A stretch of 64,000 nucleotides of DNA, from the NCBI GenBank assembly GCA_964489525.1, contig CAZAYY010000021.1, forward strand, positions 104-64,103, read 5' to 3'. This stretch comes from an uncultured Anaerolineales bacterium (GTDB lineage Bacteria; Chloroflexota; Anaerolineae; Anaerolineales; JABWBV01). Numbering within the stretch: position 1 is the stretch's first letter; every line of letters begins with the position of its first letter. The notes under the pieces are model-generated. The model was not told the origin of the DNA. It saw nothing but the letters and a program-made list of their open reading frames with translations, and searched no databases. This document shows, one piece after another, positions 2 to 32,058 of this stretch. A program made the translations under genes and the position numbers.

Positions 2-169
2 GATTTGCAAACCGTAGCAGAGTATTTCGATTGGGTGACGCTGATCAACGTCCGGCGAATTGCCAGCGGACCCGTTGCGCAAGTGTTTACCGAAGAACAC
101 TTGCGCCTGGCGTATGGTGGGCGGGTGGCTTTCTTGTCCCAAAACAGCAGCCAACCTGCTCTCCCCTGA
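2..169 (+). CDS. metal ABC transporter ATP-binding protein, C-terminal fragment (5' end lies outside the window)
   Basis: Frame 2 is open from the window edge to TGA at 167-169. It reads [45 protein letters not shown]..., which resembles the C-terminal tail of MntB/ZnuC/TroB-type ATPases. It sits directly upstream of two ABC-3 permease genes. It is absent from the ORF track because no start lies in the window. Confidence 0.6.
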
Positions 170-182
170 GCCGGAGGAAAGA

Positions 183-1394
183 ATGCCGGATTTATTAACC
201 GACTTATTTTTGGATTACACACTGCGAACCATTGCTCTGGGGACTATGATCCTGGGCATCGTCAGCGCATCCCTTGGCTCTATCGCGCTGCTGCGCCGCC
301 AAAGCCTGTTAGGAGATGCCATATCCCACGCGGCACTGCCGGGGGTGGCTGTGGCCTTTATGCTTACAGGCAGCAAATCATCCCTTGTACTCATGGTAGG
401 GGCTGCCGTTGCCGGCCTGCTCGCCACACTGCTGATGCTGGTCATTACCCGCTACACCCGCATCAAAGAAGATACCAGCCTGGGCATTATCCTTTCCGTG
501 TTTTTTGGCGTGGGGCTGATGCTGCTTACCTTTTTACAGAGCAACCCCGACGCACGCCAGGCTGGCTTGAACACCTTTTTGTTCGGCCAGGCCGCCACAC
601 TTTTAGGGCGCGATGTCGCCGTCATGGGGGTTTTCGGCGGAATGGCCTTGCTGGCCCTGGTTCTTTTTTGGAAAGAAATTAAACTGCTTGCTTTCGACCA
701 GGACTACGCGGCCAGCCTGGGTTTTGATGTACAAAAAATTGAAGCCCTGGTCACCGGGCTTTTGGTTGTGGCCATTGTAATAGGCCTGCAGGCAGTAGGT
801 GTGGTCCTGATGAGCGCCATGGTGGTGGCCCCGGCTGCGGCAGCCCGTCAGTGGACTGACAGGTTAGGGCGCATGGTGGTGCTGGCAGCCGGGTTTGGGG
901 CGTTTTCGGGTGTGGTTGGGGCGGCCATCAGCAGCAGCGGCCAGGGGCTTTCCACCGGGCCTGTGATTGTCCTGGTGGCCAGCGGGCTGGTGCTGTTCTC
1001 TCTGCTGCTGGCACCCCGGCGTGGTGTTTTGGCAGTGTGGGTACAGCAGCGCCGCACCCAACAGCGCTACCAGGGCGAACAGGCCCTGGCCAGCCTCTAT
1101 CTGCTTGCGATCCAACACGACAACCCGCAATACCCGCACCCCATTGGCGCGCTGAAAGTCATGCAGCCCAACCAGGTGCTGCAAAAAACCCTCAAAACGC
1201 TCGAGCGCAGCGGCCTGGTGCGCAAAGCCCTGGACGACGAATGGGCGCTGACGCCCAAAGGGGTAGAGTACGCCCAAACCCTGGTAGACCCCCAATCCAT
1301 TGCCGCATTGAAAGGAACCCACCACCACCACACAAACAAACCCCAAACTATGGATGCCGGAAAAGGAAGCCCGCATGACCGCCACACAAATTGA
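183..1394 (+). CDS. metal (Mn/Zn/Fe) ABC transporter permease, ABC-3 family, with C-terminal winged-helix-like extension and His-rich tail
   Basis: The protein is multi-TM and typical of MntC/ZnuB/TroC (LGDAISHAALPGVA, VGVVLMSAMVVAPAAAAR). I moved the start from 60 to the ATG at 183, which has GGAGG at 173-177 and begins after the upstream stop at 169. About 100 aa after the last TM read LKTLERSGLVRKALDDEWALTPKGVEYAQTL and then GTHHHHT. Confidence 0.85.
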   Translation: MPDLLTDLFLDYTLRTIALGTMILGIVSASLGSIALLRRQSLLGDAISHAALPGVAVAFMLTGSKSSLVLMVGAAVAGLLATLLMLVITRYTRIKEDTSLGIILSVFFGVGLMLLTFLQSNPDARQAGLNTFLFGQAATLLGRDVAVMGVFGGMALLALVLFWKEIKLLAFDQDYAASLGFDVQKIEALVTGLLVVAIVIGLQAVGVVLMSAMVVAPAAAARQWTDRLGRMVVLAAGFGAFSGVVGAAISSSGQGLSTGPVIVLVASGLVLFSLLLAPRRGVLAVWVQQRRTQQRYQGEQALASLYLLAIQHDNPQYPHPIGALKVMQPNQVLQKTLKTLERSGLVRKALDDEWALTPKGVEYAQTLVDPQSIAALKGTHHHHTNKPQTMDAGKGSPHDRHTN

Positions 1395-2481
1395 AATCCA
1401 GCTAATTGGTGCCCTGGTAGCCATAGCCTGCGCCCTGCCGGGGGTTTTCCTGGTGCTGAGGCGCATGGCCATGTTAAGCGATGCCATCAGCCACACGGTG
1501 CTATTGGGCATCGTATTAACCTTTTTCGCCACCCAAGATCTTCGTTCTCCCTGGTTACTGGTGGGGGCGGCGGCAATGGGGGTGGTGACGGTGGCGTTGG
1601 TGGAACTGCTTAACCAAACTCGCCTGGTGCGTCAAGATGCTGCCATTGGCCTGGTTTTTCCGGCGCTGTTCAGCCTGGCCATCATCCTGATTTCGCGTTA
1701 TGCAGGTAGCGTCCACCTGGACACGGACGCCGTCCTTTTAGGTGAACTGGCCTTCGCGCCCTTTAACCGGTTTACGCTCTTTCGCTTGGACCTACCCCAG
1801 GCAGTGGTGACGGTTGGCGGCATTTTGCTGGTTCAGGTCATTTTCTTCGGTTTGTTTTATAAGGAATTAAAGCTCTCCACCTTTGACGCCGGTCTGGCTG
1901 CTGCGCTGGGCTTCTCGCCTGTGGTCCTGCACTATGCCCTGATGACCGTCGTCTCGATAACTGCGGTGGGGGCCTTTGATGTGGTTGGCTCCGTGCTTGT
2001 GGTCGCCCTTATGGTCGGCCCGGCCGCGGCGGCCTACCTGCTAACGAACCACCTGGGCAAAATGCTGGCCATCAGTGCGCTGACCGGCGCGGCCAGCGCA
2101 ATCAGTGGCTACTGGCTGGCCCGGGCGCTGGACGCAAACATTGCCGGCTCCATGGCCGCCATGACCGGATTCTTTTTCTTGCTCGCATTTTTATTTGCCC
2201 CCGAGCGGGGCCTGTTGGCCGCAGCCCGTCGGCAGGCGCGCCAGCGCTGGGAATTTGCCCAAATTGCCCTGGCCATCCACCTGCTCAATCATGAGGGACA
2301 CCCAGAAGCCGCTGAAGAAAACCAGGTCGGCCACCTCGGCCAACATCTGCGCTGGGACCCGGCTTTTGCAGAACAGGTGGTCCGAAGGGCCGTGGTTGCC
2401 GAGTTCATCCAGCGCCAGGGACACCATTTGTTCCTTACCGAACTGGGCCGCCAGGTCGCTCGACAGGCCATGAGCCGCTAA
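1375..2481 (+). CDS. metal ABC transporter permease, ABC-3 family (second subunit), with C-terminal soluble extension
   Basis: Carries the ABC-3 hallmark LSDAISHTVLLGIV and VGSVLVVALMVGPAAAAY. The start is placed at the ATG at 1375 (MTATQIEIQLIG) after AAGGAAG; it overlaps the upstream stop, suggesting translational coupling. The C-terminal ~90 aa (WEFAQIALAIHLLNHEG...FIQRQGHHLFLTELGRQVARQAM) look like a winged helix. Confidence 0.85.
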   Translation: MTATQIEIQLIGALVAIACALPGVFLVLRRMAMLSDAISHTVLLGIVLTFFATQDLRSPWLLVGAAAMGVVTVALVELLNQTRLVRQDAAIGLVFPALFSLAIILISRYAGSVHLDTDAVLLGELAFAPFNRFTLFRLDLPQAVVTVGGILLVQVIFFGLFYKELKLSTFDAGLAAALGFSPVVLHYALMTVVSITAVGAFDVVGSVLVVALMVGPAAAAYLLTNHLGKMLAISALTGAASAISGYWLARALDANIAGSMAAMTGFFFLLAFLFAPERGLLAAARRQARQRWEFAQIALAIHLLNHEGHPEAAEENQVGHLGQHLRWDPAFAEQVVRRAVVAEFIQRQGHHLFLTELGRQVARQAMSR

Positions 2482-2501: not shown

Positions 2502-2530
2502 TTGACAAAAACGCCTGGCGCGAGTATCAT
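2502..2530 (+). promoter_or_regulatory. sigma-70-type promoter for the left tRNA(CAT) copy
   Basis: TTGACA (2502-2507), a 17-nt spacer, then TATCAT (2525-2530). The tRNA 5' end lies at 2547, 16 nt after the -10 box. Confidence 0.5.
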
Positions 2531-2546
2531 TCACCCGCTAAAAATC

Positions 2547-2618
2547 GGCAAGGTAACTCAATGGCAGAGTAGCGGACTCATAAGCCGTAAGTTGTGGGTT
2601 CAAGTCCCACCCTTGCCA
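2547..2618 (+). tRNA. tRNA with CAT anticodon (Met, or Ile2 if lysidine-modified), copy 1
   Basis: Cloverleaf read by hand: acceptor GGCAAGG/CCTTGCC, D arm ACTC-AATGGCA-GAGT, anticodon loop CTCATAA, T arm GTGGG-TTCAAGT-CCCAC, discriminator A, no encoded CCA. Position 31/39 is an A/G mismatch in my fold. Confidence 0.85.
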
Positions 2619-2619
2619 C
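2547..2619 (+). repeat. direct repeat, left copy (attL-like), covers the whole tRNA
   Basis: Identical over 73 nt to 7568-7640 (ggcaaggtaactcaatggcagagtagcggactcataagccgtaagttgtgggttcaagtcccacccttgccac). The sequences diverge immediately outside the repeat. Confidence 0.9.
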
Positions 2620-2999
2620 TATCGTACATATGGCGGTATCGCCTGTACTTTACCAGCATATATGGTGTTTTCAATGTTCGGCTTTGCCTGAAAGATGGTG
2701 ATAATCCGCTACATATGGACACCACCAAACAAAAAAGCCAGCGGCTTAGACTGGCTTTGTTTGGTAAAATTGGTTCGCTGCTTGAATGCCAGTCCATTCT
2801 TGCGGCGGCCCGGTTGAATGTTCCAGCATTCACCGGGCAATTTTATTAAGTTCATTGTAAACCGGCTCTTGCAAAAAAGCAAGTACACGCGGGTTTATTT
2901 AATGCGCCCAAAAAACGGCGATATTTGCCCCGTTCTTTTCGTAAAGATATAAATGCCATGTTTGCCAGGAGAACGCCGGAAAAGGGCGGTTTTTGTGCT

Positions 3000-3248
3000 C
3001 TATGTTGGCTCAACAAACAGCAGCGACACCCCGAAGGGTTCACCCTCTCCCGAAAAGCGGCGCTCAATTTCCCCGTATGGGCAGCAAACCGGTTCCCCAT
3101 CAAAAGATTCTCGAAAAACCTGCACCAGCGTATCGGGTGGTATAGGCTCTGGCAGTTCCGGCGAAAGCACTTGAATAAATTTGATGGCATGGCGGCGAGA
3201 TGTCCCGGCGGTTTTTTCCAATCGGGCAATTCGGCTCTTAGGATTCAT
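3000..3248 (-). CDS. hypothetical protein (element cargo)
   Basis: This is the best-looking of four overlapping ORFs here. It reads MNPKSRIARLEKTAGTSRRHAIKF..., with AAGGAA about 6 nt upstream of the ATG at 3248 (the track start at 3266 was trimmed). I recognise no family. Confidence 0.45.
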   Translation of the reverse strand: MNPKSRIARLEKTAGTSRRHAIKFIQVLSPELPEPIPPDTLVQVFRESFDGEPVCCPYGEIERRFSGEGEPFGVSLLFVEPT

Positions 3249-3305
3249 GGGTAATTCCTTTTGCAAGTGATTCCAGGGCAGTTAAGCGGGTTTCAATCTC
3301 AGCAC

Positions 3306-3515
3306 TTAGACAAAAAAACCTAGTAACCCAAAAAGAAAACCGAATATTCCGAGAGTAAGCACTAACACCAACGCTAAGCCAAAAATGGTTGCCACGATAG
3401 AGATATTCCGAAGGTATTTTGTCTGTTTGATTTGTTCATCATGGATGGTTTTTAGCCACATAAAAAGAAGTTCGTTGGTGTTTGTTTCTGTTGGGATTCC
3501 GGGTACTTGATTCAT
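3306..3515 (-). CDS. small membrane protein, single C-terminal TM (element cargo)
   Basis: GGAGG lies 6 nt upstream of the ATG at 3515. The C-terminal hydrophobic stretch is IVATIFGLALVLVLTLGIFGFLFGLLGFFV. Confidence 0.55.
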   Translation of the reverse strand: MNQVPGIPTETNTNELLFMWLKTIHDEQIKQTKYLRNISIVATIFGLALVLVLTLGIFGFLFGLLGFFV

Positions 3516-3556
3516 GGTTTACCTCCAAAAAAAGATAATCTCATTAAAGCACAGTT

Positions 3557-3940
3557 TTACTTTCCGGTGAGAATTTGCTCTTCCAGGGCGACAAGTCTCT
3601 TTTCAATATTTACCAGGTTGTAATAGCGCTCCAGCAGTTCAAGAATATTGACGGCAGCAAGCCGGCGCGTATTGTCCTCACGCCCACCCGATTCCATGAT
3701 GTTTGCCAGGATTACAACGGCGCGCTCTCCCTGCCCGGCAAGACGGTTCAAAACCTTTTGGCGCATGGCGGCCCGGCCTGACTCCAAAGCGGCGAAAAAT
3801 TCGGGCTCCTGGAGCCAACGGTATACAGTCCTCACGGATACACCAGCGCGGGCGGCGGCGCTCTCGGATGGTTCCCCGGCCAGCAGCGCGGCAAGAACGG
3901 TTTCTTTTTGCGAAGTGGAATTTTTTCCCATAACTGACAC
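3557..3940 (-). CDS. helix-turn-helix DNA-binding protein (small-terminase-like or regulator)
   Basis: N-terminal HTH (SESAAARAGVSVRTVYRWLQEPEFFAAL) followed by a helical, coiled-coil-like tail. This layout is shared by phage TerS proteins and some regulators. The track start is GTG at 3940; an alternative ATG lies at 3931. Confidence 0.6.
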   Translation of the reverse strand: MSVMGKNSTSQKETVLAALLAGEPSESAAARAGVSVRTVYRWLQEPEFFAALESGRAAMRQKVLNRLAGQGERAVVILANIMESGGREDNTRRLAAVNILELLERYYNLVNIEKRLVALEEQILTGK

Positions 3941-3951
3941 CTACGGACATT

Positions 3952-4749
3952 TTACACAGCTTTAACTATTCCATCCGGCAATTTTACGGGTGAACGTTCA
4001 TACGGGTTCAATTTAGGCGGTATTCTCGCCTGCTTTGCGTTGTCTTTGGGCGCGCCTGGCTCTCTACCATCCGCTTCGCACCTGTCCAAAATCGCTTGAA
4101 TGTACTTCCAAGACGGCGCCCCATCCGTGACACTGAGAGCGGCTTCATTAACGGCTTGCTTCACCAATGGCTCACCATGCTTTGCTATGGCTTGAGTGAA
4201 ACCTTCCTGTATTGACTTGTTAGGCTTTACGCCAAAATAGTCATACCAAAAAGAAAAAAAAGCGGCGGCGGTGTTACCTGTCACGGGTGACTCACCCGTG
4301 ACCTCTATGTCTACCTCTTCCTCTGTGTCTCTGTATTTTTCTTGCTCTCCCTCTTGTTCTTGCTCTAAGTGTAACCCTGGTAATTTCAATTTTTCGCGGC
4401 GGCGCGCTTGACGTTCGCGCCATTGTTCGCGGTTCTTTGCTTGCTTCTCAATGTCCGGCCCTTGCTCTTCCATGAAACGGGCAATTTCAAGGACACCAGC
4501 GCGCTTAACCAAAAAACCGGCATTAAGCAATTCGTTTATCACACCATCCAATTCTGGCGGCGCGGTTCTCAAGTGCCAGGCCAAACGGTTTATATGCAAT
4601 GGCCCGGTATTGTCCACCAACGCCCCACCCGCGTCTTGCTTTGCTGCAAACAGGTACAATTTCAAGTACATTCCAGCAGCGGCGGGTGTCAGACTTTGAA
4701 AGTCAAAGTCCTCAAGCAATGTGTAGGGTATTTTTATCCAATGGTACAT
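3952..4749 (-). CDS. DnaD/phage-replication-domain-like protein
   Basis: The C-terminal segment FGVKPNKSIQEGFTQAIAKHGEPLVKQAVNEAALSVTDGAPSWKYIQAILDRCEADG resembles the DnaD/DnaB_2 replication-initiation domain. The start is moved to the ATG at 4749 (MYHWIKIPY), which has GAGGAA upstream. Confidence 0.6.
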   Translation of the reverse strand: MYHWIKIPYTLLEDFDFQSLTPAAAGMYLKLYLFAAKQDAGGALVDNTGPLHINRLAWHLRTAPPELDGVINELLNAGFLVKRAGVLEIARFMEEQGPDIEKQAKNREQWRERQARRREKLKLPGLHLEQEQEGEQEKYRDTEEEVDIEVTGESPVTGNTAAAFFSFWYDYFGVKPNKSIQEGFTQAIAKHGEPLVKQAVNEAALSVTDGAPSWKYIQAILDRCEADGREPGAPKDNAKQARIPPKLNPYERSPVKLPDGIVKAV

Positions 4750-4807
4750 AGGTTCCTCAAGGTGAACGCCGGGCATGCCAGCATTCCGACACGCCCGGCA
4801 GGTAAAT

Positions 4808-5230
4808 TCATTTTTGCCAAAGGGTTAATTGTACAATCGGGTTTTGTCCTTCCCGGCGCATCATCCACCCGGAAAGGGGTAGGGCAATTTGTTCGCCAAA
4901 GCCCCGATTGATTCGAAAACCGGCCTGCCGGATATGCTCAATACTTGCCGTATAGGTTTGGCGGGTTTCGGTGTCCAGGATTACAACCCTCACGGCCCCA
5001 AGATTTTCAGCAGCGGCGAGCAAGTCAATATCGTTTGCAATCGCGGGTGGGCGCTTCAAAAAATGTTTGGAGCCCTGCACCTGTTTGTGCAATGTCCCGG
5101 AATTGACATACCCGGCGCGCTTGCCGTTTGACAGGAAAACGGGTATATTTTTCTTAGAGGAGTTCGAGCCTTCGGTTCCTTTGCCCGGAATGCTCTGGTA
5201 CAGCATGCCGGGTTTTGTTTTTGGTGTCAT
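4808..5230 (-). CDS. hypothetical protein (element cargo)
   Basis: 140-aa ORF whose ATG overlaps the stop of the upstream RHH gene (ATGA at 5230). I recognise no family. Confidence 0.5.
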   Translation of the reverse strand: MTPKTKPGMLYQSIPGKGTEGSNSSKKNIPVFLSNGKRAGYVNSGTLHKQVQGSKHFLKRPPAIANDIDLLAAAENLGAVRVVILDTETRQTYTASIEHIRQAGFRINRGFGEQIALPLSGWMMRREGQNPIVQLTLWQK

Positions 5231-5451
5231 TATCCCACCCCTTCCCCATCCAGGGCAGCGGCGGCGCTCTCTGCCAGGTGAACGGCGGTTTCCAGCGCGT
5301 CAACGGCAGCAGCGGTTTCCAGGCGGGTAAGATACGTTTTCAGTGCCCGGCGGACAATTGAACCCCGCGAACGCTCTTCACGGAGGGCGGCCTGGGTAAG
5401 CCGCTCGTATAATTCGGGGTCAATTCGAATTGGGAAAATGTTCTTTTTCAT
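5230..5451 (-). CDS. ribbon-helix-helix (CopG/Arc-like) protein
   Basis: PIRIDPELYERLTQAALREERSRGSIVRRALKTYL fits the beta-strand plus two-helix RHH pattern. AAGGAG lies upstream of the ATG at 5451. Confidence 0.7.
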   Translation of the reverse strand: MKKNIFPIRIDPELYERLTQAALREERSRGSIVRRALKTYLTRLETAAAVDALETAVHLAESAAAALDGEGVG

Positions 5452-5587
5452 GGATAAACTCCTTTCGAGAATAAAAAAACACCAAAGAAAGAGAAACGCT
5501 TGCGGCGGCGTTTGTCTCTTCCTTTGGTGTCGTGTTACTTACTATGCTTATTATATTACGACACAGGCGAATTCTCCAGTGAATTTA

Positions 5588-5794
5588 TTACCACCGGCTT
5601 TTGTCCTCAGGGCAGCTTTGCCCCTCAGAAAGCCAACGCCCGGCAGCTTCCCCGGTGTCAATTTCCCCGGCCAGGGTATCGTCAAGTTCGAAGTCCTGAA
5701 ATTCTTGGGGCAAGCAGTAATAGTCAATGATAACCAGGTCATTGGACGATAAGCGCTCTCTCAATTGTTCTTCTGTCAATTTTTCGGGTGTCAT
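5588..5794 (-). CDS. hypothetical acidic protein (element cargo)
   Basis: 68-aa ORF with GGAGAA 6 nt upstream of the ATG. I recognise no family. Confidence 0.45.
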   Translation of the reverse strand: MTPEKLTEEQLRERLSSNDLVIIDYYCLPQEFQDFELDDTLAGEIDTGEAAGRWLSEGQSCPEDKSRW

Positions 5795-5955
5795 GTTCGG
5801 TTCTCCAATCGGGTAGGAAAGATGGATAAAAAGGTTTGGGTTCTACTCACTGAATACCACCACCAGCACAGGCGGCGCCCTACCCCACCACCGGCGGCGG
5901 CTTGTGCTTCTCCATTTTCCCTGGGGTTTCCATGCACGCGCATACATGCACGCCC

Positions 5956-6543
5956 CTATTTCTCAGCAATGCGCCGGAAAACGGCGCGGCCAGCGGGCGA
6001 TAACTCAAGCGGCGAATTGGAGCGTTCTCCATAGCGGGCAAGTCCAGCTTGCACCAGTGCGGCCCGGAATGTATCGAATTGGGCGCGGGTGAAAGGCTTC
6101 CCGGCCCCTGTCCATTGATTGACGGCGAGCCCATGCCCGGCCAGGACACCAACGGCAAGAGCCTTCAATTGGTGGTATTCGGCGGGTAAATCAATAAACC
6201 GGGTTTGCCTGCCATTCTCCTGGGTGACTTCCACCCGTAGGGGTTCCGGCCTGGGTGTCAATATGGGCAGCGGTTCAGGTTGGGTGGGTTCCTCTGGTAG
6301 TTCCGGCGGCCCATAGAGTGCATAATTGCGCGCCGTTTGCCAGCGTCCCTGAAGTGCATACCATTGCACAGCGGCCAAAACACACCCACCAGCAAGGGCA
6401 AGGTTTCCCGGCCCTTGCCAGCTTGCCAGATTTGCAATAGCGCCAACAGCAGCACCGGAAATCAATCCCGTCAAAACACTTTGGGCGGCGGGTATCACAA
6501 GTCCACTTTTCAAAGATTCCAGGGTGTCAAGTTCAGCGCTCAT
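5956..6543 (-). CDS. hypothetical protein: two N-terminal TM helices, Pro-rich linker, C-terminal wHTH-like domain
   Basis: TM segments are VIPAAQSVLTGLISGAAVGAIANLA and LALAGGCVLAAVQWYAL. The linker is PPELPEEPTQPEPLPILTPRPEP. The start overlaps the integrase stop by 4 nt. Confidence 0.5.
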   Translation of the reverse strand: MSAELDTLESLKSGLVIPAAQSVLTGLISGAAVGAIANLASWQGPGNLALAGGCVLAAVQWYALQGRWQTARNYALYGPPELPEEPTQPEPLPILTPRPEPLRVEVTQENGRQTRFIDLPAEYHQLKALAVGVLAGHGLAVNQWTGAGKPFTRAQFDTFRAALVQAGLARYGERSNSPLELSPAGRAVFRRIAEK

Positions 6544-7493
6544 TTTCGGCTCCTCTTATTTAGAAGTTTATCTACTGGACTCGCGGCGGCATGGGCAGCA
6601 GATAAATCGGATTCGGTTTGTTTGAGATAGCGCCGTACAATCTGTAAATCGGCATGCCCCATAAGGGTTTGCAATGAGAAAACGTCCATACCACAGCGTA
6701 GGCAGTTAATCGCAAACGCACGCCGGAATGAGTGCAATTCGGGCGGCTCAATGCCAGCAGCAGCGGCCCGGCGTTTGACGGCTTCGCGCAATCCCGAATA
6801 AGTCAATCTCTCCCCGGTTTGCCATGATGGGAAAAGCGGCCCGGCCTGGGTTCCCCGTTCAGCAAGCCAACGGCGCATGACACGCCGGGCGGTTTGTCCC
6901 AAAAATACCACCCGGAATTTGTCTCCCTTGCCATGCCGGATATACAGCGAGCCATTAACCGGGTTATAGTCCTGGACGTTCAGGGCGGTAAGTTCGCTTG
7001 CCCTGGAGCCGGTGTCAAGCAAGGTTAAGAAAATTGCCCTGTCTCTGATTCCCTGTTTCTCGTCACCACAGGCGGCAAGCAATTTTTCAATGTCTGCCAG
7101 CGACACCGGCTCTAATGGTTCCGGATTCAGTTTAGGCGGCTTAACTTTGGCGAATGGATTTTTCCATTGTACAGGTTCTGTTTCCAACGCCCACCAGCGA
7201 ACGAAAGCGCGCAGCGCTCTATAATGTTGGTGAACCCCACCGGCATTATTGCCCCGTTCCTGGAGCCAAAGCAAGAAGTTCCGAATAAAAAGCGCGTCAA
7301 TCTCGCCGGGCTCATTGACGGCGCGCAATTGGGCAAAAGTCAATAAGTTTTTAAATTTGTCCTGATAAAACTTCAGGGTACCAGGCGATACGCCGGCGGC
7401 CTGTCTGTCATGCAAGAAGGCTTCAATCCAGGTTTGCATGTCACTGGACACGGAAAAAGTTATAATCCGCTGCTCATGGGCTTTTGTGCTCAT
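6540..7493 (-). CDS. tyrosine recombinase / phage-type integrase
   Basis: An N-terminal SAM-like core-binding region is followed by a catalytic domain with LDTGSRASEL, HSFRRAFA, LMGHADLQIVRRYL (R..H-x-x-R..Y pattern). The start is moved to the ATG at 7493, which has AGGAG 8 nt upstream; the track start at 7502 is a GTG. Confidence 0.9.
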   Translation of the reverse strand: MSTKAHEQRIITFSVSSDMQTWIEAFLHDRQAAGVSPGTLKFYQDKFKNLLTFAQLRAVNEPGEIDALFIRNFLLWLQERGNNAGGVHQHYRALRAFVRWWALETEPVQWKNPFAKVKPPKLNPEPLEPVSLADIEKLLAACGDEKQGIRDRAIFLTLLDTGSRASELTALNVQDYNPVNGSLYIRHGKGDKFRVVFLGQTARRVMRRWLAERGTQAGPLFPSWQTGERLTYSGLREAVKRRAAAAGIEPPELHSFRRAFAINCLRCGMDVFSLQTLMGHADLQIVRRYLKQTESDLSAAHAAASPVDKLLNKRSRK

Positions 7494-7567
7494 CAAATAC
7501 ACTCCTATATATGCACTTTGCGCCCAAAAAATTGGGCATTTTGTCCATATATGGCGGTATTTTTCAG

Positions 7568-7639
7568 GGCAAGGTAACTCAATGGCAGAGTAGCGGACTC
7601 ATAAGCCGTAAGTTGTGGGTTCAAGTCCCACCCTTGCCA
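7568..7639 (+). tRNA. tRNA with CAT anticodon, copy 2 (identical to copy 1)
   Basis: Same 72-nt sequence as 2547-2618. It is followed by a terminator, but I see no consensus promoter between it and the integrase start. Confidence 0.85.
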
Positions 7640-7640
7640 C
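7568..7640 (+). repeat. direct repeat, right copy (attR-like)
   Basis: Identical over 73 nt to 2547-2619. Confidence 0.9.
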
Positions 7641-7643
7641 AGA

Positions 7644-7680
7644 AAAAAAGCAGTCCATAATTTGGGCTGCTTTTTGTTTT
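7644..7680 (+). terminator. rho-independent terminator after tRNA copy 2
   Basis: Stem GCAGTCC (7650-7656) pairs with GGGCTGC (7664-7670), including one G-T pair. The loop is ataattt, followed by TTTTTGTTTT. Confidence 0.6.
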
Positions 7681-7915
7681 GCAACTGCTTATCCCACCCT
7701 CTGCCAATGGCCTGGATAGGGTCCCTATAGGGGTTGGACAATAACAGCCATAAGCGCTTACCCCTTCTTCGTGAGCGCGGAAAAGGGGGAACTGTTATCC
7801 AATCTTCTTTGCTATAATAATCATACAGTAAAAAACCCTCCTTAATTCCATAAAAACTTCGGTAATGGTGAGAATAACGCCTCACCCGCACACCTGTTAC
7901 AGGTAAAGGAATGCG

Positions 7916-23963: not shown

Positions 23964-25469
23964 TCAGGGTACAACGGGCTTTTGCCATTGATAGACCGTC
24001 ATATTGGTTCCGCCTTGAGCTGGGGCAAACGGAGCCTGGGTTGAAAAAACCACCCGCCGGTCTTTTTCCAGGTAGGGATACCAGCCTGCCAGGGTGACCA
24101 GGTATTTCGGCTTGCGCTGGTCCAGGTAGGCTTCCAACTTTGGCTCATCCCGGATAAACGGAATGACATCCGGCAAAATCAGACCAGCCAGGTCCACAAT
24201 CGGGCGTTTGCCAAAATAGCCTAAAGCGCCAATATCATGCGCCGCCACCAGGGTTTGCGGGGCGCTGGTGGCCGCAATCCAACGAGCGGTTTCCACCATC
24301 TCCGACTCGATATAAGCAACATCCCTGGCATAAGCCTGCCCACCCAGTCCGCAAAAAACCAGCAGGGCTGCACCCACAGCCAATGACCAGGCCCGGCTGA
24401 GGATTCTCCGCCAGACAGTCCGGCTGTTTGGCCTTGCCCAGGCCGCCAGGCCTGCTAACGCCAACAGCAAAAAAACCGGTATGACAGGCATAATATAACG
24501 GCCATGCTGGTAGGTTACCGGCAGGCGAATGGCATACAATCCCAGGTAGCCCAACACCCAGAATATACTGGCCAACACAGGCCAGTTTTTTCGCCGCCAG
24601 GACTGGTAAGTTGTATTCAAAAAACCAGGCAGCAGCAAAGCCCCTACACCCACCAGGGGTAAACCCGCCTGCTGAACCAGGCGGACAAAGAGCGGCTGTT
24701 CGCGCAGCACAGCATATTCCGCCTGCTTGGCGAAAAATGTGTTCGGCCACCATGCGCCAGCCAGGGCCTGGTTAAAAACCAGGTACGGGAGAAACAGCGC
24801 TCCAAAACCCAAAAAAAACCAACCCAAAAGCCGCGCCCGAGTGAACCCCGCCTGGCGGCCAAAAGCGCCCACCAGCAGAACCGGGCCAAGCAGGGTGATG
24901 GCATCTGGCCGCAGCCAGGTACCCACCCCCACCAACCCACCCAACCCCAACCAGGCTAACGGGCGCGGGCGCATCCCAAGCGCAAGCCAACCCAATGCAG
25001 CAGTGACAACCACAGCAAAGCTCAGGGTTTCCATACCCGAAGCGGCCGCCCAAACCATGTGCCATTCCAAGACAAGCAGCAGCCCGGCCCAAAACGCATT
25101 CCCGGCTTTTTCAGGCGCATACGCCCGAAAAACAGACATCCCCACCAGGCCCAAGCCTGAAAGCGCCACCCAACCCAAAAAGAACGCCCATACCAGCGGC
25201 TCAACCCCAAGCGCATACCCCAATGCGAGCAGCACTGTCCAAAGCGGCGCGGTGGAGCCTGCCGTAGGTTGGCCAGGAAAAAACGACCACTCGCCGGACT
25301 GCCCCAGGCTGCGGGCGTAAGTTTGGTGAATCCAGGCATCGTCCAGCGGAAAACCAGGGCGGTAGAGCCAGGCGCTCGCCAGCAGATACAGTCCCACAAC
25401 CAGCCCGGCAGCCAGGCAAACCCAGGCATGCCAGCGCCATTTCCGCCAAAAAGCCGCAGCAAATTTCAT
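23964..25469 (-). CDS. polytopic membrane protein, putative GT-C glycosyltransferase (DDA-motif type)
   Basis: About 12 hydrophobic segments. An acidic motif follows TM1 (RPGFPLDDAWIHQTYARSLGQSGEW). There is a short C-terminal soluble domain. ATGA overlap with the upstream gene. Confidence 0.6.
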   Translation of the reverse strand: MKFAAAFWRKWRWHAWVCLAAGLVVGLYLLASAWLYRPGFPLDDAWIHQTYARSLGQSGEWSFFPGQPTAGSTAPLWTVLLALGYALGVEPLVWAFFLGWVALSGLGLVGMSVFRAYAPEKAGNAFWAGLLLVLEWHMVWAAASGMETLSFAVVVTAALGWLALGMRPRPLAWLGLGGLVGVGTWLRPDAITLLGPVLLVGAFGRQAGFTRARLLGWFFLGFGALFLPYLVFNQALAGAWWPNTFFAKQAEYAVLREQPLFVRLVQQAGLPLVGVGALLLPGFLNTTYQSWRRKNWPVLASIFWVLGYLGLYAIRLPVTYQHGRYIMPVIPVFLLLALAGLAAWARPNSRTVWRRILSRAWSLAVGAALLVFCGLGGQAYARDVAYIESEMVETARWIAATSAPQTLVAAHDIGALGYFGKRPIVDLAGLILPDVIPFIRDEPKLEAYLDQRKPKYLVTLAGWYPYLEKDRRVVFSTQAPFAPAQGGTNMTVYQWQKPVVP

Positions 25470-27079
25470 GGCAGCACCTCAAAAATCCGGGTTTCCCCAA
25501 CTGTATCCAGCAGCCGCAAGCCGGGTGAAGCCCCAGGGTCCTCGAACAGCCCGGCCAGCCCGGCCGGGTGATTGGCCTCCAAAACCACAAAACGGGCCTG
25601 GTAGCGCCGGGCGGCAGCCAGCAGCGCCCCTTCTCCCCCATCCGGAACCACGATCGCAGGGCGAGATGCAGCAGCAAAATACCCGGGGGGGTTGTTGATC
25701 ATCACAACATCGTCAGGCTGTGCACCCAATGCCTGCAGTTGGGATTCGACCTGGCGGTAGTGGCCATCAGGGGCATTCCAGGCCGGCGCCTGCGGGTCAG
25801 TGCCAATCACACGCCCCCAGCCGATAAACAGCGAAAGCCCGGCAGAGAAGAGAACCACAGAAAAGCTAAAAATTCGCCAGGCCTGGCGGGGGCGCCAACC
25901 GCGTGCCTGGCTTCCCCAACGAACAAAGACATCCAATCCAACCGCAGCAGCCAGCCAAAACAGCGGCTGCACAGCCGCACCCGAATGGAAAAAACCGCCG
26001 CGTGCCCCGGCAAAGGGAAAAATCACAGTCATCACGCCCATTGTAACCAGCCAGCCTAATACTCCCAACTGCACCACCCCCTCGCGGCGCAGCGTCCACA
26101 GCCCGACCAGCACCAGCGGCAGCAGGAAAATGCTGCCCTGCACAGCCAGCGTAGTTTGCAAATTTTGCCCCAGGGCAAAGGCGCGGGCCTGGAGCAGGCT
26201 TTCCCAACCAGCAGCCCACCAGTGTTCAAAAGTCAGCATGGTAGAAGGATAGATAAAGAGCTCGTCATAGGTGGTTAACCAAAGGGCACGCACACCTCCA
26301 GGAGCGAGTATTGAATTAAAAACCCCAAGGTTCCGCAGCGCCCAGGGGCCAAACACCAGGGCATAACCGGCCGCCAGCGCGACCGTGCGCAGCCCGGCCT
26401 GACGCAGCCGCACCCATATCGGGAGCGGGCCTGCATTGTAAAAACTCGCCAGAAACCCTACCCCAAGCCAGGTGAACCCATCCGCCCGCGAGAGATGCAT
26501 CAAACCAGCCATTGCCCCCATACCTGCAAACCCGGCCAGGCTGCGCGCCGCGAGTAAGCCAGGCGCACTGCCCGCCCCCTCTTGCAGCGAAAAACCCGCT
26601 AAAATCAACCAGGCCAAACCAAAAACCATATAAAGTCCAAATGTGTCTGTGGTGGTCAAAAATGGCAGGTAAAATCCGGGAAAACAAGCCAGCCATCCAG
26701 CCAGGCGGCTGATATCCTGCTTTTGAGTCCACTTGAACGCAAACCAGGCCGTCAGCGGCGGGATGCTCGCGGCAGCCAGGATGAACCCCAACCGGGCAGC
26801 GTTAAACTCGCCCAGCCACCCAAACCATTTCAACCCGGCTGCTGCCACCAGGGAGGCAAACGGCATCCAATATCCATGCGAGGGTTGGGGCAGGCCTTGC
26901 GGGTCGGAGAGATAATTCCACAACACCTTTTCTGTGAAGCCCTCTCCTTGCGCCAACTGCACCCCACCCATGTAATAATAATCGGCGTCCATATAGCCCG
27001 GCGCCTGTTGGAAAACCCCAACCAACAGCAGCAAACCCAGTGCAAGGCCAAATAATTGGAGAAAAAACGATCGCTTCAA
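25466..27079 (-). CDS. polytopic membrane protein, putative GT-C glycosyltransferase
   Basis: Motif APGYMDADYYYMGGVQLAQGEGF follows TM1. I prefer the TTG at 27079 as start: AAGGAG lies 5 nt upstream and it avoids overlap with the upstream stop at 27102. The track start is the ATG at 27121. Confidence 0.6.
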   Translation of the reverse strand: MKRSFFLQLFGLALGLLLLVGVFQQAPGYMDADYYYMGGVQLAQGEGFTEKVLWNYLSDPQGLPQPSHGYWMPFASLVAAAGLKWFGWLGEFNAARLGFILAAASIPPLTAWFAFKWTQKQDISRLAGWLACFPGFYLPFLTTTDTFGLYMVFGLAWLILAGFSLQEGAGSAPGLLAARSLAGFAGMGAMAGLMHLSRADGFTWLGVGFLASFYNAGPLPIWVRLRQAGLRTVALAAGYALVFGPWALRNLGVFNSILAPGGVRALWLTTYDELFIYPSTMLTFEHWWAAGWESLLQARAFALGQNLQTTLAVQGSIFLLPLVLVGLWTLRREGVVQLGVLGWLVTMGVMTVIFPFAGARGGFFHSGAAVQPLFWLAAAVGLDVFVRWGSQARGWRPRQAWRIFSFSVVLFSAGLSLFIGWGRVIGTDPQAPAWNAPDGHYRQVESQLQALGAQPDDVVMINNPPGYFAAASRPAIVVPDGGEGALLAAARRYQARFVVLEANHPAGLAGLFEDPGASPGLRLLDTVGETRIFEVLP

Positions 27080-27101
27080 AAAGGCTCCTTTATTCCAGCG
27101 G

Positions 27102-29090
27102 TCATGGCCCCGGCAGCGCATACAGCGTGTACACCTGGTTGTAATCCGTGGTTAAAACCAACTTGTCCAGCACCTGCTCAAAGCCCTGCCAATCGGCTGA
27201 ATTGTAGCGCGGCTCGGTGCGATAAAAAGATACCCCCTGCTGGTTCACCAGCACATGGCTGAACCCGGCAGCCTGCCAGGTTTCAATCATCTGGCCGGGG
27301 TTTTGCCCTTGCCGCCAGTCCATCAGCCAGCGGTCCACCACCTCGTCGGGGACACAAACGGGCGTGCAGTAAAAACTGCGCGGCTCCCAAAGCATCAACA
27401 CGCGACTGTTTTCAGGCAGCTCCATCAGCGACTGGAAAACCAGGCCAGCCATGCCCAGGTTGGTTTGTAAATATTCCTGGGTGGAAACCTGGGTTGTAAG
27501 CCAGCGAGCAGATCCCTGGCGCTGCAAGGCCACAGCAGATTGAACCCCATTTAACCCCAGCACGAGCAAAACCAGCACCCCAAACACCCGCCGCAGGCGC
27601 ACCCCAGGCCAGTGAACCGCCTGAACCCCTGCGAACCCCGCCCCTGCAAGTAAAGCCGCCGCAGGAAACAAGGCCCAATACAGGCGCGTTTGCACCAACA
27701 GCCCCGAAGCCAGGCTGGCAAACGCCCAAACCAACCAACCCAAGCCAAAAAACAGGGCCGCTGCCGACAGGGTTTGCCTGTGGCGGCTGGCCGCAAGGCT
27801 GGTGGGAAGAAAAGCCAAAACACCCAGGCCCAACAAAAGCGGGCCAATCGAAGCGCTGAAGCCAACTGCCGCTTCTCGCCCGTTTACTGTGGCCAACCAG
27901 GGAAGCAGCGGGGCCTGCCAGGCAGCCAGCCAGGCGGGTTGGTCCTGGTAAAGGTCAAGCCGCAGGCTGTTCATGGCCCCGGCAGGCAAAAAGAACGGGT
28001 AAAAAGGGCTGCCTGTGGTTGCCAGGTTCTTCATCCACCAGGGCAGAGAAACCAGCCCGGCAGCCAGCCCAAACACAACCACAGCCCAAAGCGCCTGCCG
28101 CCACCCGGCGCGGCGGGAATACCACCCCACCAATCCCAGGCCAGCCAGCAAAACTACGCCCGCCGTATATTTCGTCCCCAGGGCAAAACCAGCAAACATC
28201 CCGCCAAGAATGAGCAGCCGCACCGGGCGCTCTTCCTCGGCAGCCCACAAATCAAGGCAAGCAAACGCCCCCAGGCCAAACAGCAGGGTGAGCCAGTCCA
28301 CATACCCCCAACTGAGCGCACTGCTGAACGAAAAACCTGCCATTAGCGTTCCAACCGCCAGCCAGCCCTGGGTGGTTCCCAGGCGCTGAACGCCAAACGC
28401 CAGCAGCCCGGCCAGCGCCAGCAGCCCAAAAAGCCAGCCTATCACCGCAGCGGTTTCAATCCCGGCCAGGGCATACGCCCAGGTATACAGCATTTCCCCG
28501 GTTTGCGGCATGCCCCAAAACATCAGTTCCGGAACATATGTCACCCGGCCAGCGGCCAAGTACATTTTGGGCAGGGTGAAGTGGTAAACGAGGGCGTCGA
28601 ATTTCAGCGGAGGGGCAAGAGCAGTTACCAGGCCAAAACCCAACAGGCCGCCGCACAACACGCCCACCAATTTTTCCAGGCGGCCAGCGCTGCGCCAAAG
28701 AGCGCCCAGATCACCCCAGGCCAGCAGCCAGGCGAGCATGTCTTTTCGAAAAACCCAACCTAACCCAAGCAAAGCCGCCCAGGCCAACAGAGGGGAAACC
28801 CCCAAAAGGCTGCCCACCAGCAAAACACCCGCCCCCATCACCCCCAGGCCCAGGGCAGCCTGCAGGGCTGCCTGCGTTAAAGGGCGCAGCCCCAACCCGG
28901 GCGCAAACCGCCGGCCGATTGCCCCTGCCAGAGCAGCCAGCCCCCCTGCGAGCGTAAGCCGGAGCAAAGCAAGCCCCAGGCCGGCCGCAGCCTGGATGTC
29001 CAGCGGCTTGTTAACCCGGTAATACGCCGCCGTAACCAGCAGCAGCCAGGCAAGACCACCTAACGCAAGCCAACGAACAGAATGCTTCAT
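27102..29090 (-). CDS. polytopic membrane protein, putative GT-C glycosyltransferase (DAxxYH subfamily) with C-terminal soluble domain
   Basis: Motif LAPPLKFDALVYHFTLPKMYLAAGR...GEMLY. More than 12 hydrophobic segments. About 130 aa of C-terminal non-membrane domain. Confidence 0.6.
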   Translation of the reverse strand: MKHSVRWLALGGLAWLLLVTAAYYRVNKPLDIQAAAGLGLALLRLTLAGGLAALAGAIGRRFAPGLGLRPLTQAALQAALGLGVMGAGVLLVGSLLGVSPLLAWAALLGLGWVFRKDMLAWLLAWGDLGALWRSAGRLEKLVGVLCGGLLGFGLVTALAPPLKFDALVYHFTLPKMYLAAGRVTYVPELMFWGMPQTGEMLYTWAYALAGIETAAVIGWLFGLLALAGLLAFGVQRLGTTQGWLAVGTLMAGFSFSSALSWGYVDWLTLLFGLGAFACLDLWAAEEERPVRLLILGGMFAGFALGTKYTAGVVLLAGLGLVGWYSRRAGWRQALWAVVVFGLAAGLVSLPWWMKNLATTGSPFYPFFLPAGAMNSLRLDLYQDQPAWLAAWQAPLLPWLATVNGREAAVGFSASIGPLLLGLGVLAFLPTSLAASRHRQTLSAAALFFGLGWLVWAFASLASGLLVQTRLYWALFPAAALLAGAGFAGVQAVHWPGVRLRRVFGVLVLLVLGLNGVQSAVALQRQGSARWLTTQVSTQEYLQTNLGMAGLVFQSLMELPENSRVLMLWEPRSFYCTPVCVPDEVVDRWLMDWRQGQNPGQMIETWQAAGFSHVLVNQQGVSFYRTEPRYNSADWQGFEQVLDKLVLTTDYNQVYTLYALPGP

Positions 29091-30781: not shown

Positions 30782-30807
30782 CCGGGCGCGCACCAAAAGG
30801 AGCAATG

Positions 30808-32046: not shown

Positions 32047-32058
32047 GCAGCCTCCAGG

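What the first reader, a model, noticed from the sequence alone, without database searches (positions are those of the whole stretch)
2547..7640. Minimal (5,021-bp period) integrase element flanked by two complete identical tRNA(CAT) genes; the tRNA promoter and terminator are split between the copies
Seen in the sequence:
- A 73-nt perfect direct repeat, each copy a whole tRNA.
- Copy 1 keeps a near-consensus promoter (TTGACA-N17-TATCAT) but has no adjacent terminator.
- Copy 2 has the hairpin plus T-run terminator but abuts the integrase start, with no obvious promoter.
- Between the copies lie nine minus-strand ORFs: tyrosine integrase, a 2-TM plus wHTH-like protein, RHH, a DnaD-like replication protein, an HTH protein with a TerS-like layout, a small TM protein and three unknowns.
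- Several hand-counted lines give 33-47% GC.
- No capsid, portal, large terminase, tail, relaxase or T4SS genes are present.

Inference: this is a site-specific integrative element whose attP spans the entire tRNA. Its size and gene set fit either a minimalist phage satellite (int + rep + TerS-like, comparable in scale to the ~5.5-kb PICMI class) or a tiny integrative plasmid. To my knowledge neither has been characterised in this kind of organism.
Basis: partly seen in the sequence, partly recalled or inferred. Interest (0 to 1): 0.6.

Follow-up and report, generated by a model that had tools for sequence, protein, structure and literature searches.

The report
Small satellite-like element inside tRNA gene
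A 5-kb mobile element sits in a tRNA gene of a Chloroflexota-type genome and carries little more than an integrase, a replication starter and a phage small-terminase-like protein; that is the gene set of a virus-parasitising "satellite", a kind of element not yet described in this phylum, but its mobility is unproven.

Summary
Two identical 73-nt tRNA(CAT) genes lie 5,021 bp apart. The host promoter sits before copy 1 and the host terminator after copy 2. Nine minus-strand ORFs lie between them, with no structural or conjugation genes.

It is an integrated mobile element with an intact Xer-like tyrosine integrase. Its deduced attP holds the whole tRNA, flanked by an exact 12-mer on each side.

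The gene cassette recurs in unrelated metagenome contigs next to other tRNAs (RHH, a conserved 140-aa protein, a DnaD-like Rep, and in one case the TerS-like protein). It is therefore a real element family.

The 127-aa HTH protein belongs to a small-terminase (TerS) family. Its relatives sit just upstream of the large terminase in two phages. They also occur, without a large terminase, in two Streptococcus satellite prophages. The window element has no large terminase.

Best reading (about 0.45): a minimal phage satellite, unrelated by gene content to PICMI. Rivals are a deleted prophage remnant and an integrative plasmid.

No empty site, circular junction or helper phage could be found, and no close relative exists in any collection searched. 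I class it as a new variant of a known kind, of moderate interest.

The parts
2502..2530 (+). Host sigma-70-type promoter of the tRNA (TTGACA-17-TATCAT). It now drives copy 1.
   Evidence: 11 of 12 consensus positions; sequence.
2547..2619 (+). tRNA(CAT) copy 1, the attL core. Complete gene, no encoded CCA.
2628..2639 (+). 12-mer ATATGGCGGTAT, 8 nt after copy 1. An exact second copy lies 7 nt before copy 2. Candidate accessory or arm-type site of attP.
   Evidence: the only two exact copies in 64 kb. A near-identical motif lies next to int in L018.
2657..2665 (.). CATATATGG motif; the palindromic core CATATATG spans 2657-2664.
   Evidence: All exact matches in the window lie at the two element ends.
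2729..2765 (.). Bidirectional terminator-like hairpin. It ends the minus-strand operon and could stop read-through from tRNA copy 1.
   Evidence: z = -4.1 and -3.6.
3000..3266 (-). 88-aa ORF, unknown function.
   Evidence: no family match.
3306..3515 (-). 69-aa ORF with a hydrophobic C-terminus; GC 37.6%.
   Evidence: no family match.
3557..3940 (-). 127-aa HTH protein, a probable small terminase (TerS).
   Evidence: - PHROG TerS families at 1e-4; relatives reach 1e-7 to 1e-10.
- AF2 model (pLDDT 80): HTH plus two long helices.
- Best PDB match 2ao9; BFVD matches include TerS proteins, best E 1.3e-4.
- Homologues lie upstream of TerL in PQ006093.1 and MT836267.1, and occur in satellites Javan328 and Javan586.
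3952..4776 (-). Rep: replisome-organiser N-domain plus a DnaD-like C-domain. The NCBI call is 265 aa, starting at 4749.
   Evidence: - phrog_186, 5.5e-15.
- TIGR01446 DnaD domain, 0.002.
- 441 remote relatives.
- Motif F..EQGP...R..W..RQ...R.
4808..5230 (-). 140-aa protein, conserved partner directly upstream of Rep. Function unknown.
   Evidence: Homologues at 40-41% identity directly upstream of Rep in L018, L020 and L027. The AF2 single-sequence model was unusable.
5230..5451 (-). 73-aa ribbon-helix-helix (CopG/Arc-like) regulator. Its stop overlaps the p140 start (TAATG).
   Evidence: RHH genes occupy the same position in L017, L018, L019 and L020.
5472..5578 (-). Intergenic control region: promoter-like site (5578-5550, TGGAGA-17-TATAAT) and a 23-nt inverted repeat (5472-5494 / 5515-5537) upstream of the RHH operon.
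   Evidence: The function is inferred.
5588..5794 (-). 68-aa acidic ORF, unknown function.
   Evidence: no family match.
5956..6543 (-). 195-aa protein. By eye it has two N-terminal hydrophobic helices, a Pro-rich linker and a C-terminal domain. Its start overlaps the int stop (ATGA).
   Evidence: no family match.
6540..7502 (-). Xer-like tyrosine integrase. The NCBI call is 317 aa from the ATG at 7493.
   Evidence: - Pfam PF00589, 1e-31.
- Xer models at 1e-39 to 1e-43, but below their cut-offs.
- Catalytic residues conserved in the family alignment.
7545..7560 (.). Palindrome CCATATATGG followed by the second exact 12-mer ATATGGCGGTAT, between the int start and tRNA copy 2.
7568..7640 (+). 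tRNA(CAT) copy 2, the attR core.
   Evidence: A Logan contig starts exactly 30 nt inside its 3' end.
7649..7681 (+). Host intrinsic terminator of the tRNA gene.
   Evidence: -21.3 kcal/mol, z = -4.15.

Best explanation
This is an intact 5,021-bp mobile element: 4,948 bp of unique DNA plus one tRNA-length repeat. It is integrated in a tRNA(CAT) gene of a Chloroflexota-type bacterium.

Shown by the sequence:
- An Xer-like tyrosine integrase gene lies next to attR.
- The identity block equals the whole tRNA gene.
- The same 12-mer flanks that block on both element sides, so the deduced circular attP reads 12-mer - 7 nt - tRNA - 8 nt - 12-mer.

Inferred life cycle:
1. The integrase excises the element. 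It may need a helper protein such as the int-overlapping 195-aa ORF or the RHH protein.
2. The RHH/p140/Rep operon starts replication of the circle. Rep acts as a DnaD-like replisome organiser that recruits host helicase.
3. The element's own small terminase (TerS) binds element DNA and hands it to the large terminase and capsids of a helper phage, probably as head-to-tail concatemers.

On this reading it is a minimal phage satellite that supplies only integration, replication and packaging specificity.
For: Integrated element:
- Perfect 73-nt repeats that equal the tRNA.
- Integrase with conserved catalytic residues.
- Lower GC and GC3 than the host flanks.
- Tightly packed, uninterrupted ORFs with ATGA and TAATG overlaps.
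- Exact 12-mers at both ends and nowhere else in 64 kb.

Real family:
- int..RHH-p140-Rep synteny in L018, L020 and L027, and int-RHH-Rep-TerS-like synteny in L019. Protein identities are 30-51%, and the elements lie next to other tRNAs (Leu, Thr, Arg).
- The L025/L026 member also has a whole-tRNA block.

TerS:
- PHROG TerS families.
- Predicted fold of HTH plus helical hairpin, with 2ao9 and BFVD TerS matches.
- Homologues directly upstream of TerL in a complete circular phage and in MT836267.1.
- Homologues without TerL in Streptococcus satellite prophages Javan328 and Javan586, downstream of their replication genes.

Not a phage or known plasmid:
- No TerL, capsid or conjugation genes in the element.
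- The Rep family is absent from IMG/VR, INPHARED phages and PLSDB plasmids.

Precedent: small int + rep + TerS elements without capsid genes are packaged as concatemers (VEIMEs, PMC9618062; PICMI, PMC10803314).
Against: - There is no evidence of excision, circular form, encapsidation or a helper phage. The ten largest other ORFs of the window show no phage structural genes.
- The window protein's own TerS matches are weak (1e-4 in PHROGs; 30% identity, E 8e-5 to 1e-3 by tblastn).
- Relatives of the TerS-like gene in L014 and L016 are not next to a recognisable TerL.
- Other Rep-family elements are longer than 5.6-7.4 kb and lack the TerS-like gene right after Rep, so the family may consist of larger elements or phages.
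- The gene order int - replication - TerS is also that of a temperate phage cut short after TerS.
Confidence: 0.45

Rival explanations
1. Deletion remnant of a temperate phage. A full prophage integrated at this tRNA lost everything between TerS and its far end. What remains is int, the early/replication module, TerS and two small terminal ORFs between intact att sites.
For: - The gene order int - regulator - replication - TerS matches temperate siphophage layout.
- TerS homologues sit next to TerL in real phages.
- A GC dip and a small membrane-protein ORF, which could be a leftover lysis gene, follow TerS.
- Relatives L025 and L027 extend beyond 5.6-7.4 kb with many small same-strand ORFs, including an HNH endonuclease.
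Against: - Both att repeats and both 12-mers are perfect and all ORFs are intact.
- Rep directly followed by TerS is conserved in the distant L019 element.
- The Rep family was not found in 2.9 million IMG/VR viral contigs or 50,697 phage records, although the integrase family was.
Confidence: 0.22
2. Small integrative plasmid or other non-phage element. It excises and replicates through Rep, with RHH acting as a CopG-like copy-number regulator. It spreads by vesicles, transformation or mobilisation. The HTH protein is a DNA-binding regulator or excision factor, not a terminase.
For: - An RHH(CopG-like)-Rep arrangement is plasmid-like.
- There are no phage structural genes.
- The Rep family is absent from viral collections.
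- TerS-like relatives in L014 and L016 are not next to a recognisable TerL.
- The HTH also gives weak matches to transposase and excisionase HTH models.
Against: - The Rep family is also absent from 72,556 PLSDB plasmids.
- There is no relaxase, oriT-type or FtsK-like transfer gene.
- The Rep's best matches are phage DnaD-like loaders.
- The HTH family occupies the TerS position in two phages and occurs in two named satellites.
Confidence: 0.2
3. Assembly artefact. A free circular element that carries a tRNA identical to the chromosomal one was threaded into the chromosome by the assembler through the 73-nt repeat.
For: - The window comes from a metagenome-assembled contig (68.6 kb, NCBI).
- Short-k assemblies break exactly at the repeat.
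Against: - A free circle with this tRNA would still be the same element in its excised state, so the biology is unchanged.
- Related contigs from independent samples also join int to a tRNA.
- The host promoter and terminator lie exactly at the outer edges.
Confidence: 0.05

Closest known systems
Phage-inducible chromosomal islands (PICI/SaPI type), including the in-silico 'Streptococcus satellite prophages' Javan328 and Javan586 (PMC6813308)
   Same: - Integrase at one end, then regulators, a replication module and a TerS-type gene near the far end.
- No TerL or capsid genes.
- The window's 127-aa protein has detectable homologues in Javan328 (30% identity over 87% of its length); its relative P0128 has one in Javan586.
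   Different: - About half the size (5.0 kb against 8-15 kb).
- The replication protein is a DnaD-like organiser, not a primase/helicase.
- The integrase is Xer-like.
- No capsid-remodelling genes, and no Stl-type repressor was identified.
- Chloroflexota host.
- Helper induction is untested.
PICMI (phage-inducible chromosomal minimalist islands, Vibrionaceae; PMC10803314)
   Same: - A minimalist integrative element of a few genes, with no capsid genes.
- A gene overlaps int by ATGA; in PICMI that gene (iolg) is needed for excision.
- The concatemer packaging model would solve the size problem.
   Different: - No AlpA, no DUF3987/DUF5906 primase, and not inserted next to fis.
- Different phylum.
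- The window element has a TerS-like gene, which is not among the genes the PICMI paper describes. It is not a PICMI member.
VEIMEs (virion-encapsidated integrative mobile elements of marine bacteria; PMC9618062)
   Same: Small integrative elements with integrase, replication genes and, in some, TerS homologues or HNH. They have no capsid genes and are found integrated in host genomes.
   Different: VEIMEs are defined by being observed as concatemers inside virions, which is not available here. No sequence relationship was tested, and the hosts are different.
tRNA-gene genomic islands of the Islander type (PMC4383910)
   Same: A tyrosine integrase, with the target tRNA gene and a direct-orientation copy marking the two island ends.
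   Different: The 'displaced fragment' here is a complete, identical tRNA gene. Islander's filter rejects matches that fall within a full-length tRNA gene, so this configuration is discarded by design.
Actinomycete integrative plasmids (pSAM2, SLP1). This entry rests on my own knowledge and was not tested here.
   Same: Small int + rep elements that integrate in tRNA genes. As I recall, SLP1's att identity block covers a whole tRNA-Tyr gene.
   Different: Those carry FtsK-like transfer genes and rolling-circle Rep proteins. None was found here.

Membership tests
tRNA-integrating tyrosine-recombinase element | Tyrosine recombinase with the catalytic Arg-Lys-His-Arg-His/Trp-Tyr set | tested here: met
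   PF00589, 1e-31. R164, K189/K192, R257, H280 and Y289 are invariant and H254 is nearly invariant in the family alignment A5.
tRNA-integrating tyrosine-recombinase element | Target tRNA gene and a same-orientation copy bracketing the element, with int inside | tested here: met
   The copy is full length (73 of 73 nt).
tRNA-integrating tyrosine-recombinase element | Empty site (attB) in related genomes, or an attP circle | tested here: inconclusive
   The exact tRNA gave no match in genome, viral or metagenome collections. The nearest relatives (67% identity in the flanking permease) have no tRNA at the syntenic place.
PICMI | AlpA regulator (PF05930/PF12728) | tested here: not met
   No protein reaches these models. 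PF12728 matches the HTH protein at only 0.016, below its cut-off. The definition is taken from PMC10803314.
PICMI | Primase with DUF3987/DUF5906 | tested here: not met
   Rep matches DnaD-like and replisome-organiser models only.
PICMI | Integration next to fis, in Vibrionaceae | tested here: not met
   The site is a tRNA(CAT) gene. The flanks are most similar to Chloroflexota MAGs.
PICI-type phage satellite | int + replication module + packaging-redirection gene (TerS), without TerL or a full structural set | tested here: met
   The TerS call rests on remote homology and on the gene position of homologues.
PICI-type phage satellite | Induction, replication and packaging dependent on a helper phage | not testable with these tools
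   Needs reads, virion DNA or experiments. No helper was identified in the window.
PICI-type phage satellite | Typical size of about 10-15 kb with master repressor and primase-rep | tested here: not met
   The element is 5.0 kb. It has an RHH regulator and a DnaD-like Rep instead.
Phage small terminase (TerS) | N-terminal HTH DNA-binding domain followed by a helical oligomerisation core | tested here: met
   AF2 model with pLDDT 80: helices 6-20, 25-32 and 36-43, then long helices 46-83 and 89-125. The best PDB match is 2ao9 (E 0.44, not significant). The best BFVD match has E 1.3e-4.
Phage small terminase (TerS) | Gene immediately upstream of TerL | tested here: not met
   There is no TerL in the element. 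Homologues do meet this in PQ006093.1 and MT836267.1. Absence of TerL is expected for a satellite TerS.
DnaD-like / phage replisome-organiser initiators | Replisome-organiser N-domain plus DnaD C-domain | tested here: inconclusive
   phrog_186 at 5.5e-15 over residues 10-236. Pfam PF09681 (0.039) and TIGR01446 (0.002) both fall below their cut-offs.

The most novel reading that the evidence does not exclude
This is the first recognised phage-satellite lineage of Chloroflexota. It would be a family of minimal elements (Xer-like int, RHH, p140, DnaD-like Rep, own TerS) that use a complete tRNA gene as attP. They therefore leave two intact tRNA copies, which makes them invisible to island finders that look for tRNA fragments. 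They would be packaged as concatemers by unknown helper phages.
Probability: 0.3. Interest if true: 0.6.

Novelty: new variant of a known kind. Interest (0 to 1): 0.42.

Why it matters
- If it is a satellite, it extends phage parasitism by satellites to a phylum where none is described. It would also add a very small architecture built from gene families (Rep, p140) that have no counterpart in phage or plasmid databases.
- It shows a blind spot in practice. Elements whose att block is a whole tRNA gene are thrown out by the standard tRNA-fragment logic (Islander).
- A 5-kb unit with an integrase, defined att sites and a replication module could become a genetic tool for Chloroflexota, which to my knowledge are poorly tractable.

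Tried and rejected
- **Exact tRNA search.** The 72-nt tRNA was searched in genome, viral and metagenome collections to find attB, attP or sister elements. There were no matches.
- **Empty site by synteny.** I used the flanking permease. The relatives are too distant (at most 67% identity) and have no tRNA there.
- **Source contigs.** The look-up for the integrase found nothing on record. Those for the MaoC-type protein and the 195-aa ORF gave only about 1-2 kb Logan contigs that break at the repeat.
- **A 5,021-nt contig** carrying a related integrase (L009) looked like a circular twin. It is a coincidence, with host-like genes and no tRNA.
- **Rep relatives.** None in IMG/VR (two scans, five peptide patterns), INPHARED or PLSDB.
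- **TerS-like and p140 alignments** found nothing in IMG/VR.
- **p140 structure.** The single-sequence model had pLDDT 38 and was unusable.
- **Profile of the HTH family against PDB sequences** gave nothing meaningful.
- **Other searches.** No defence genes by PADLOC. No iterons or tandem repeats that would mark an origin.
- **PICMI membership** was rejected on three defining features.

Full report
**1. Observation**

ARAGORN finds only two tRNA genes in the 64-kb window. Both are tRNA-Met(CAT) on the + strand, at 2547-2619 and 7568-7640, and Rfam confirms both at 67.9 bits. The repeat finder gives one 73-nt direct repeat, 100% identical, with 5,021 bp spacing. The sequence diverges immediately outside both ends. 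CCA is not encoded.

The anticodon CAT does not tell elongator Met from Ile2. An initiator is unlikely, because the acceptor stem pairs G1-C71 (read from the sequence).

- The promoter TTGACA-17-TATCAT lies at 2502-2530 and matches 11 of 12 positions.
- The terminator after copy 2 is a strong hairpin with a U-run (-21.3 kcal/mol, z = -4.15).
- Three points need correction. A bidirectional terminator-like hairpin at about 2729-2765 lies 110 nt after copy 1. A promoter-like site lies about 100 nt before copy 2. The element's GC is 51.2% against 54.6% for the window, with GC3 of 0.39-0.59 (0.50-0.59 apart from the 69-aa ORF) against 0.56-0.70 for the host genes tested, mostly 0.63-0.70.

**2. Gene content**

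Nine minus-strand ORFs fill the interval.

| ORF | Coordinates | Best evidence |
|---|---|---|
| Integrase | 6540-7502 | Pfam 1e-31; closest NCBIfam models are XerA/XerC/XerD, all below cut-off; catalytic residues conserved |
| 195-aa ORF | 5956-6543 | No match; its ATG overlaps the int stop as ATGA |
| 68-aa ORF | 5588-5794 | No match |
| RHH protein | 5230-5451 | RHH_1, 3e-9 |
| 140-aa ORF (p140) | 4808-5230 | No match |
| Rep | 3952-4776 | phrog_186 DnaD-like loader, 5.5e-15; DnaD domain, 0.002 |
| 127-aa HTH protein | 3557-3940 | See section 5 |
| 69-aa ORF | 3306-3515 | No match |
| 88-aa ORF | 3000-3266 | No match |

None of them matches a capsid, portal, TerL, tail, relaxase, T4SS or defence family. 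At the DNA level only the tRNA matches anything in the phage or plasmid collections.

**3. att architecture**

The 12-mer ATATGGCGGTAT occurs exactly twice in 64 kb: 8 nt after copy 1 and 7 nt before copy 2. All exact CATATATGG motifs in the window also lie at the two element ends, and CCATATATGG at 7546-7555 is a perfect palindrome. After excision the circle would therefore read 12-mer - 7 nt - whole tRNA - 8 nt - 12-mer. This looks like a core flanked by accessory sites.

A near-identical motif (TATATATGGCGGTAC) lies between int and a different tRNA in the related contig L018. This argues that the motif belongs to the element's machinery, as an integrase or regulator site or the int promoter, and not to the target.

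**4. Host and relatives**

The flanking permease is at most 67% identical to Caldilineaceae and Anaerolineales MAGs, so the host is a Chloroflexota-type bacterium without a close sequenced relative. Those relatives have no tRNA at the site. The exact tRNA sequence is absent from all three collections. The empty-site test could therefore not be made.

The element's proteins exist only as singletons from one 68.6-kb NCBI contig, plus short Logan contigs of run SRR14492173.

Remote searches do reveal a family:
- Rep has 441 relatives that share its N-terminal 130-170 residues, with the motif F..EQGP...R..W..RQ...R.
- The integrase has more than 1,600 relatives of about 310 aa.

| Locus | Size | Content |
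|---|---|---|
| L018 | 2.7 kb | int (43%) - RHH - p140 (41%) - Rep (46%) |
| L020 | 1.4 kb | RHH - p140 - Rep |
| L027 | 5.7 kb | tRNA 3' end - int (51%) - 70-aa ORF - p140 (41%) - Rep |
| L019 | 4.8 kb | tRNA-Arg-like - int (30%) - RHH - Rep (41%) - HTH (32% over full length) |
| L025/L026 | 7.5 and 5.1 kb | complete tRNA-Thr - int (41%) - ... - Rep - HNH - at least 10 small ORFs |

The cassette is thus conserved across divergent elements that target different tRNAs.

The Logan contig L026 stops exactly 30 nt into the tRNA-Thr, and L001 starts exactly 30 nt before the end of the window's copy 2. Logan's k of 31 is my own knowledge. If that is right, the assembly graph branches exactly at the tRNA borders, so a whole-tRNA identity block is shared by at least two family members.

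Element size is unknown for all relatives. Two of them exceed 5.6 and 7.4 kb without a second att site.

**5. The TerS question**

- The window protein matches TerS PHROGs only at about 1e-4. Its relatives reach 1e-7 to 1e-10.
- An AF2 model from a five-sequence alignment (pLDDT 80) shows a three-helix HTH followed by two long antiparallel helices.
- The best PDB matches are all chains of 2ao9, a Bacillus prophage phBC6A51 protein, but they are not significant (E 0.44).
- BFVD gives E 1.3e-4, with many targets named terminase small subunit or phBC6A51-type homeodomain.
- tblastn against 50,697 phage records gives four matches, and these are the most informative evidence:
  - In the complete circular Bajarodcaudo virus 2, the homologue is followed by one 80-aa ORF, then the large terminase and portal.
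  - In MT836267.1 it overlaps by 4 nt a 460-aa TerL (phrog_3717, 1e-48).
  - One match is Streptococcus satellite phage Javan328. The relative P0128 matches satellite Javan586. In both, the gene lies downstream of the replication genes and there is no TerL (these satellites are defined in silico in PMC6813308).
  - The fourth match, MT837364.1, is a 7-kb unverified phage fragment in which the homologue lies between a sigma-factor gene and a tape-measure gene.
- A further relative lies in a 6.0-kb islet bounded by a 127-nt perfect repeat, with its own integrase and a Cro/CI regulator. That islet is directly beside a prophage whose integrase belongs to the window's integrase family (L041).

The family is therefore TerS by position in phages, and it recurs as an orphan in small integrase-bearing elements.

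**6. Interpretation**

That this is an integrated, apparently intact mobile element is well supported (about 0.9).

An element with int, a replication initiator and an orphan TerS, and nothing else recognisable, has the signature of a phage satellite. The closest analogues by function are PICI-type islands, VEIMEs and PICMI.

At 5 kb it could fill a capsid only as concatemers, as shown for PICMI and VEIMEs. That step is inferred here.

It is not a PICMI member: it has no AlpA, no DUF3987/DUF5906 primase and no fis site.

Rivals and weights:
- Prophage deletion remnant, 0.22. The gene order fits. The perfect ends, the conserved Rep-TerS adjacency in L019, and the absence of the Rep family from viral collections argue against it.
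- Integrative plasmid with the HTH protein as a regulator, 0.2. The RHH-Rep pair is plasmid-like, and TerS-like relatives in L014 and L016 lack a neighbouring TerL. But the Rep family is absent from PLSDB and there are no transfer genes.
- Assembly threading of an episome, 0.05.

**7. Novelty and limits**

Whole-tRNA att blocks are unusual. Of 3,919 Islander islands, 3,760 have 3' fragments and 159 have 5' fragments, and that pipeline rejects matches that fall within full-length tRNA genes. Such blocks are not unprecedented, as I recall for SLP1.

No phage satellite of Chloroflexota appears in the paper library.

All functional steps remain untested: excision, replication, packaging and the identity of a helper. 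The decisive data are junction-spanning reads and virion long reads.

Noticed in passing
L041 1-6129 (IMG/VR UViG_3300045970_000560, contig end): A 127-nt perfect direct repeat with a 6,002-bp period brackets an islet. The islet holds a 349-aa integrase, a Cro/CI HTH protein, a TerS-like 126-aa protein and unknown ORFs. It lies directly beside a prophage integrase of the window's family, with tail genes beyond. It may be a satellite in tandem with its helper, or a cycle in the assembly graph at a k-mer size of 127.
   Followed up: partly
L018, L019, L025, L026, L027 (first 50-180 nt of each): All contigs that carry the int-Rep cassette end within or right after a tRNA just upstream of int. The two Logan contigs L001 and L026 stop exactly 30 nt inside the repeat. 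These elements therefore break short-read assemblies systematically, which may explain why no full-length relative is available.
   Followed up: partly
L019 45-120: A tRNA-Arg(TCT)-like sequence lies on the same strand as int. Its last four acceptor-stem bases do not pair, and ARAGORN does not call it. It looks like an att-derived pseudo-tRNA with the opposite geometry to the window.
   Followed up: no
L028, L035/L036, L040, L043, L044 (IMG/VR loci): Related integrases (37-49% identity) in viral contigs also sit 50-190 nt from complete tRNA genes (Arg, Leu, Thr, Met-CAT), in either orientation. Targeting of tRNA genes seems general for this Xer-like integrase clade.
   Followed up: no
window 6540-6543: The 195-aa ORF starts inside the int stop codon (ATGA). 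This is the same overlap as the integrase-overlapping gene iolg, which PICMI needs for excision (PMC10803314). The ORF is a candidate excision factor.
   Followed up: no
window 60-2481: By eye, both tandem metal-ABC-type permease ORFs (444 and 375 aa) carry a C-terminal extension of about 90 aa. The extension looks like a winged-helix, DtxR-like domain fused to the membrane part.
   Followed up: no
window 23964-33684: A run of large minus-strand ORFs (501-662 aa) has no Pfam match at 1e-5. They are interleaved with PMT_2-type glycosyltransferases. This may be a cell-envelope glycosylation cluster.
   Followed up: no
L025 3772-4209: An HNH endonuclease gene directly follows Rep in the tRNA-Thr element. 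HNH genes often accompany terminases of cos-type phages.
   Followed up: no
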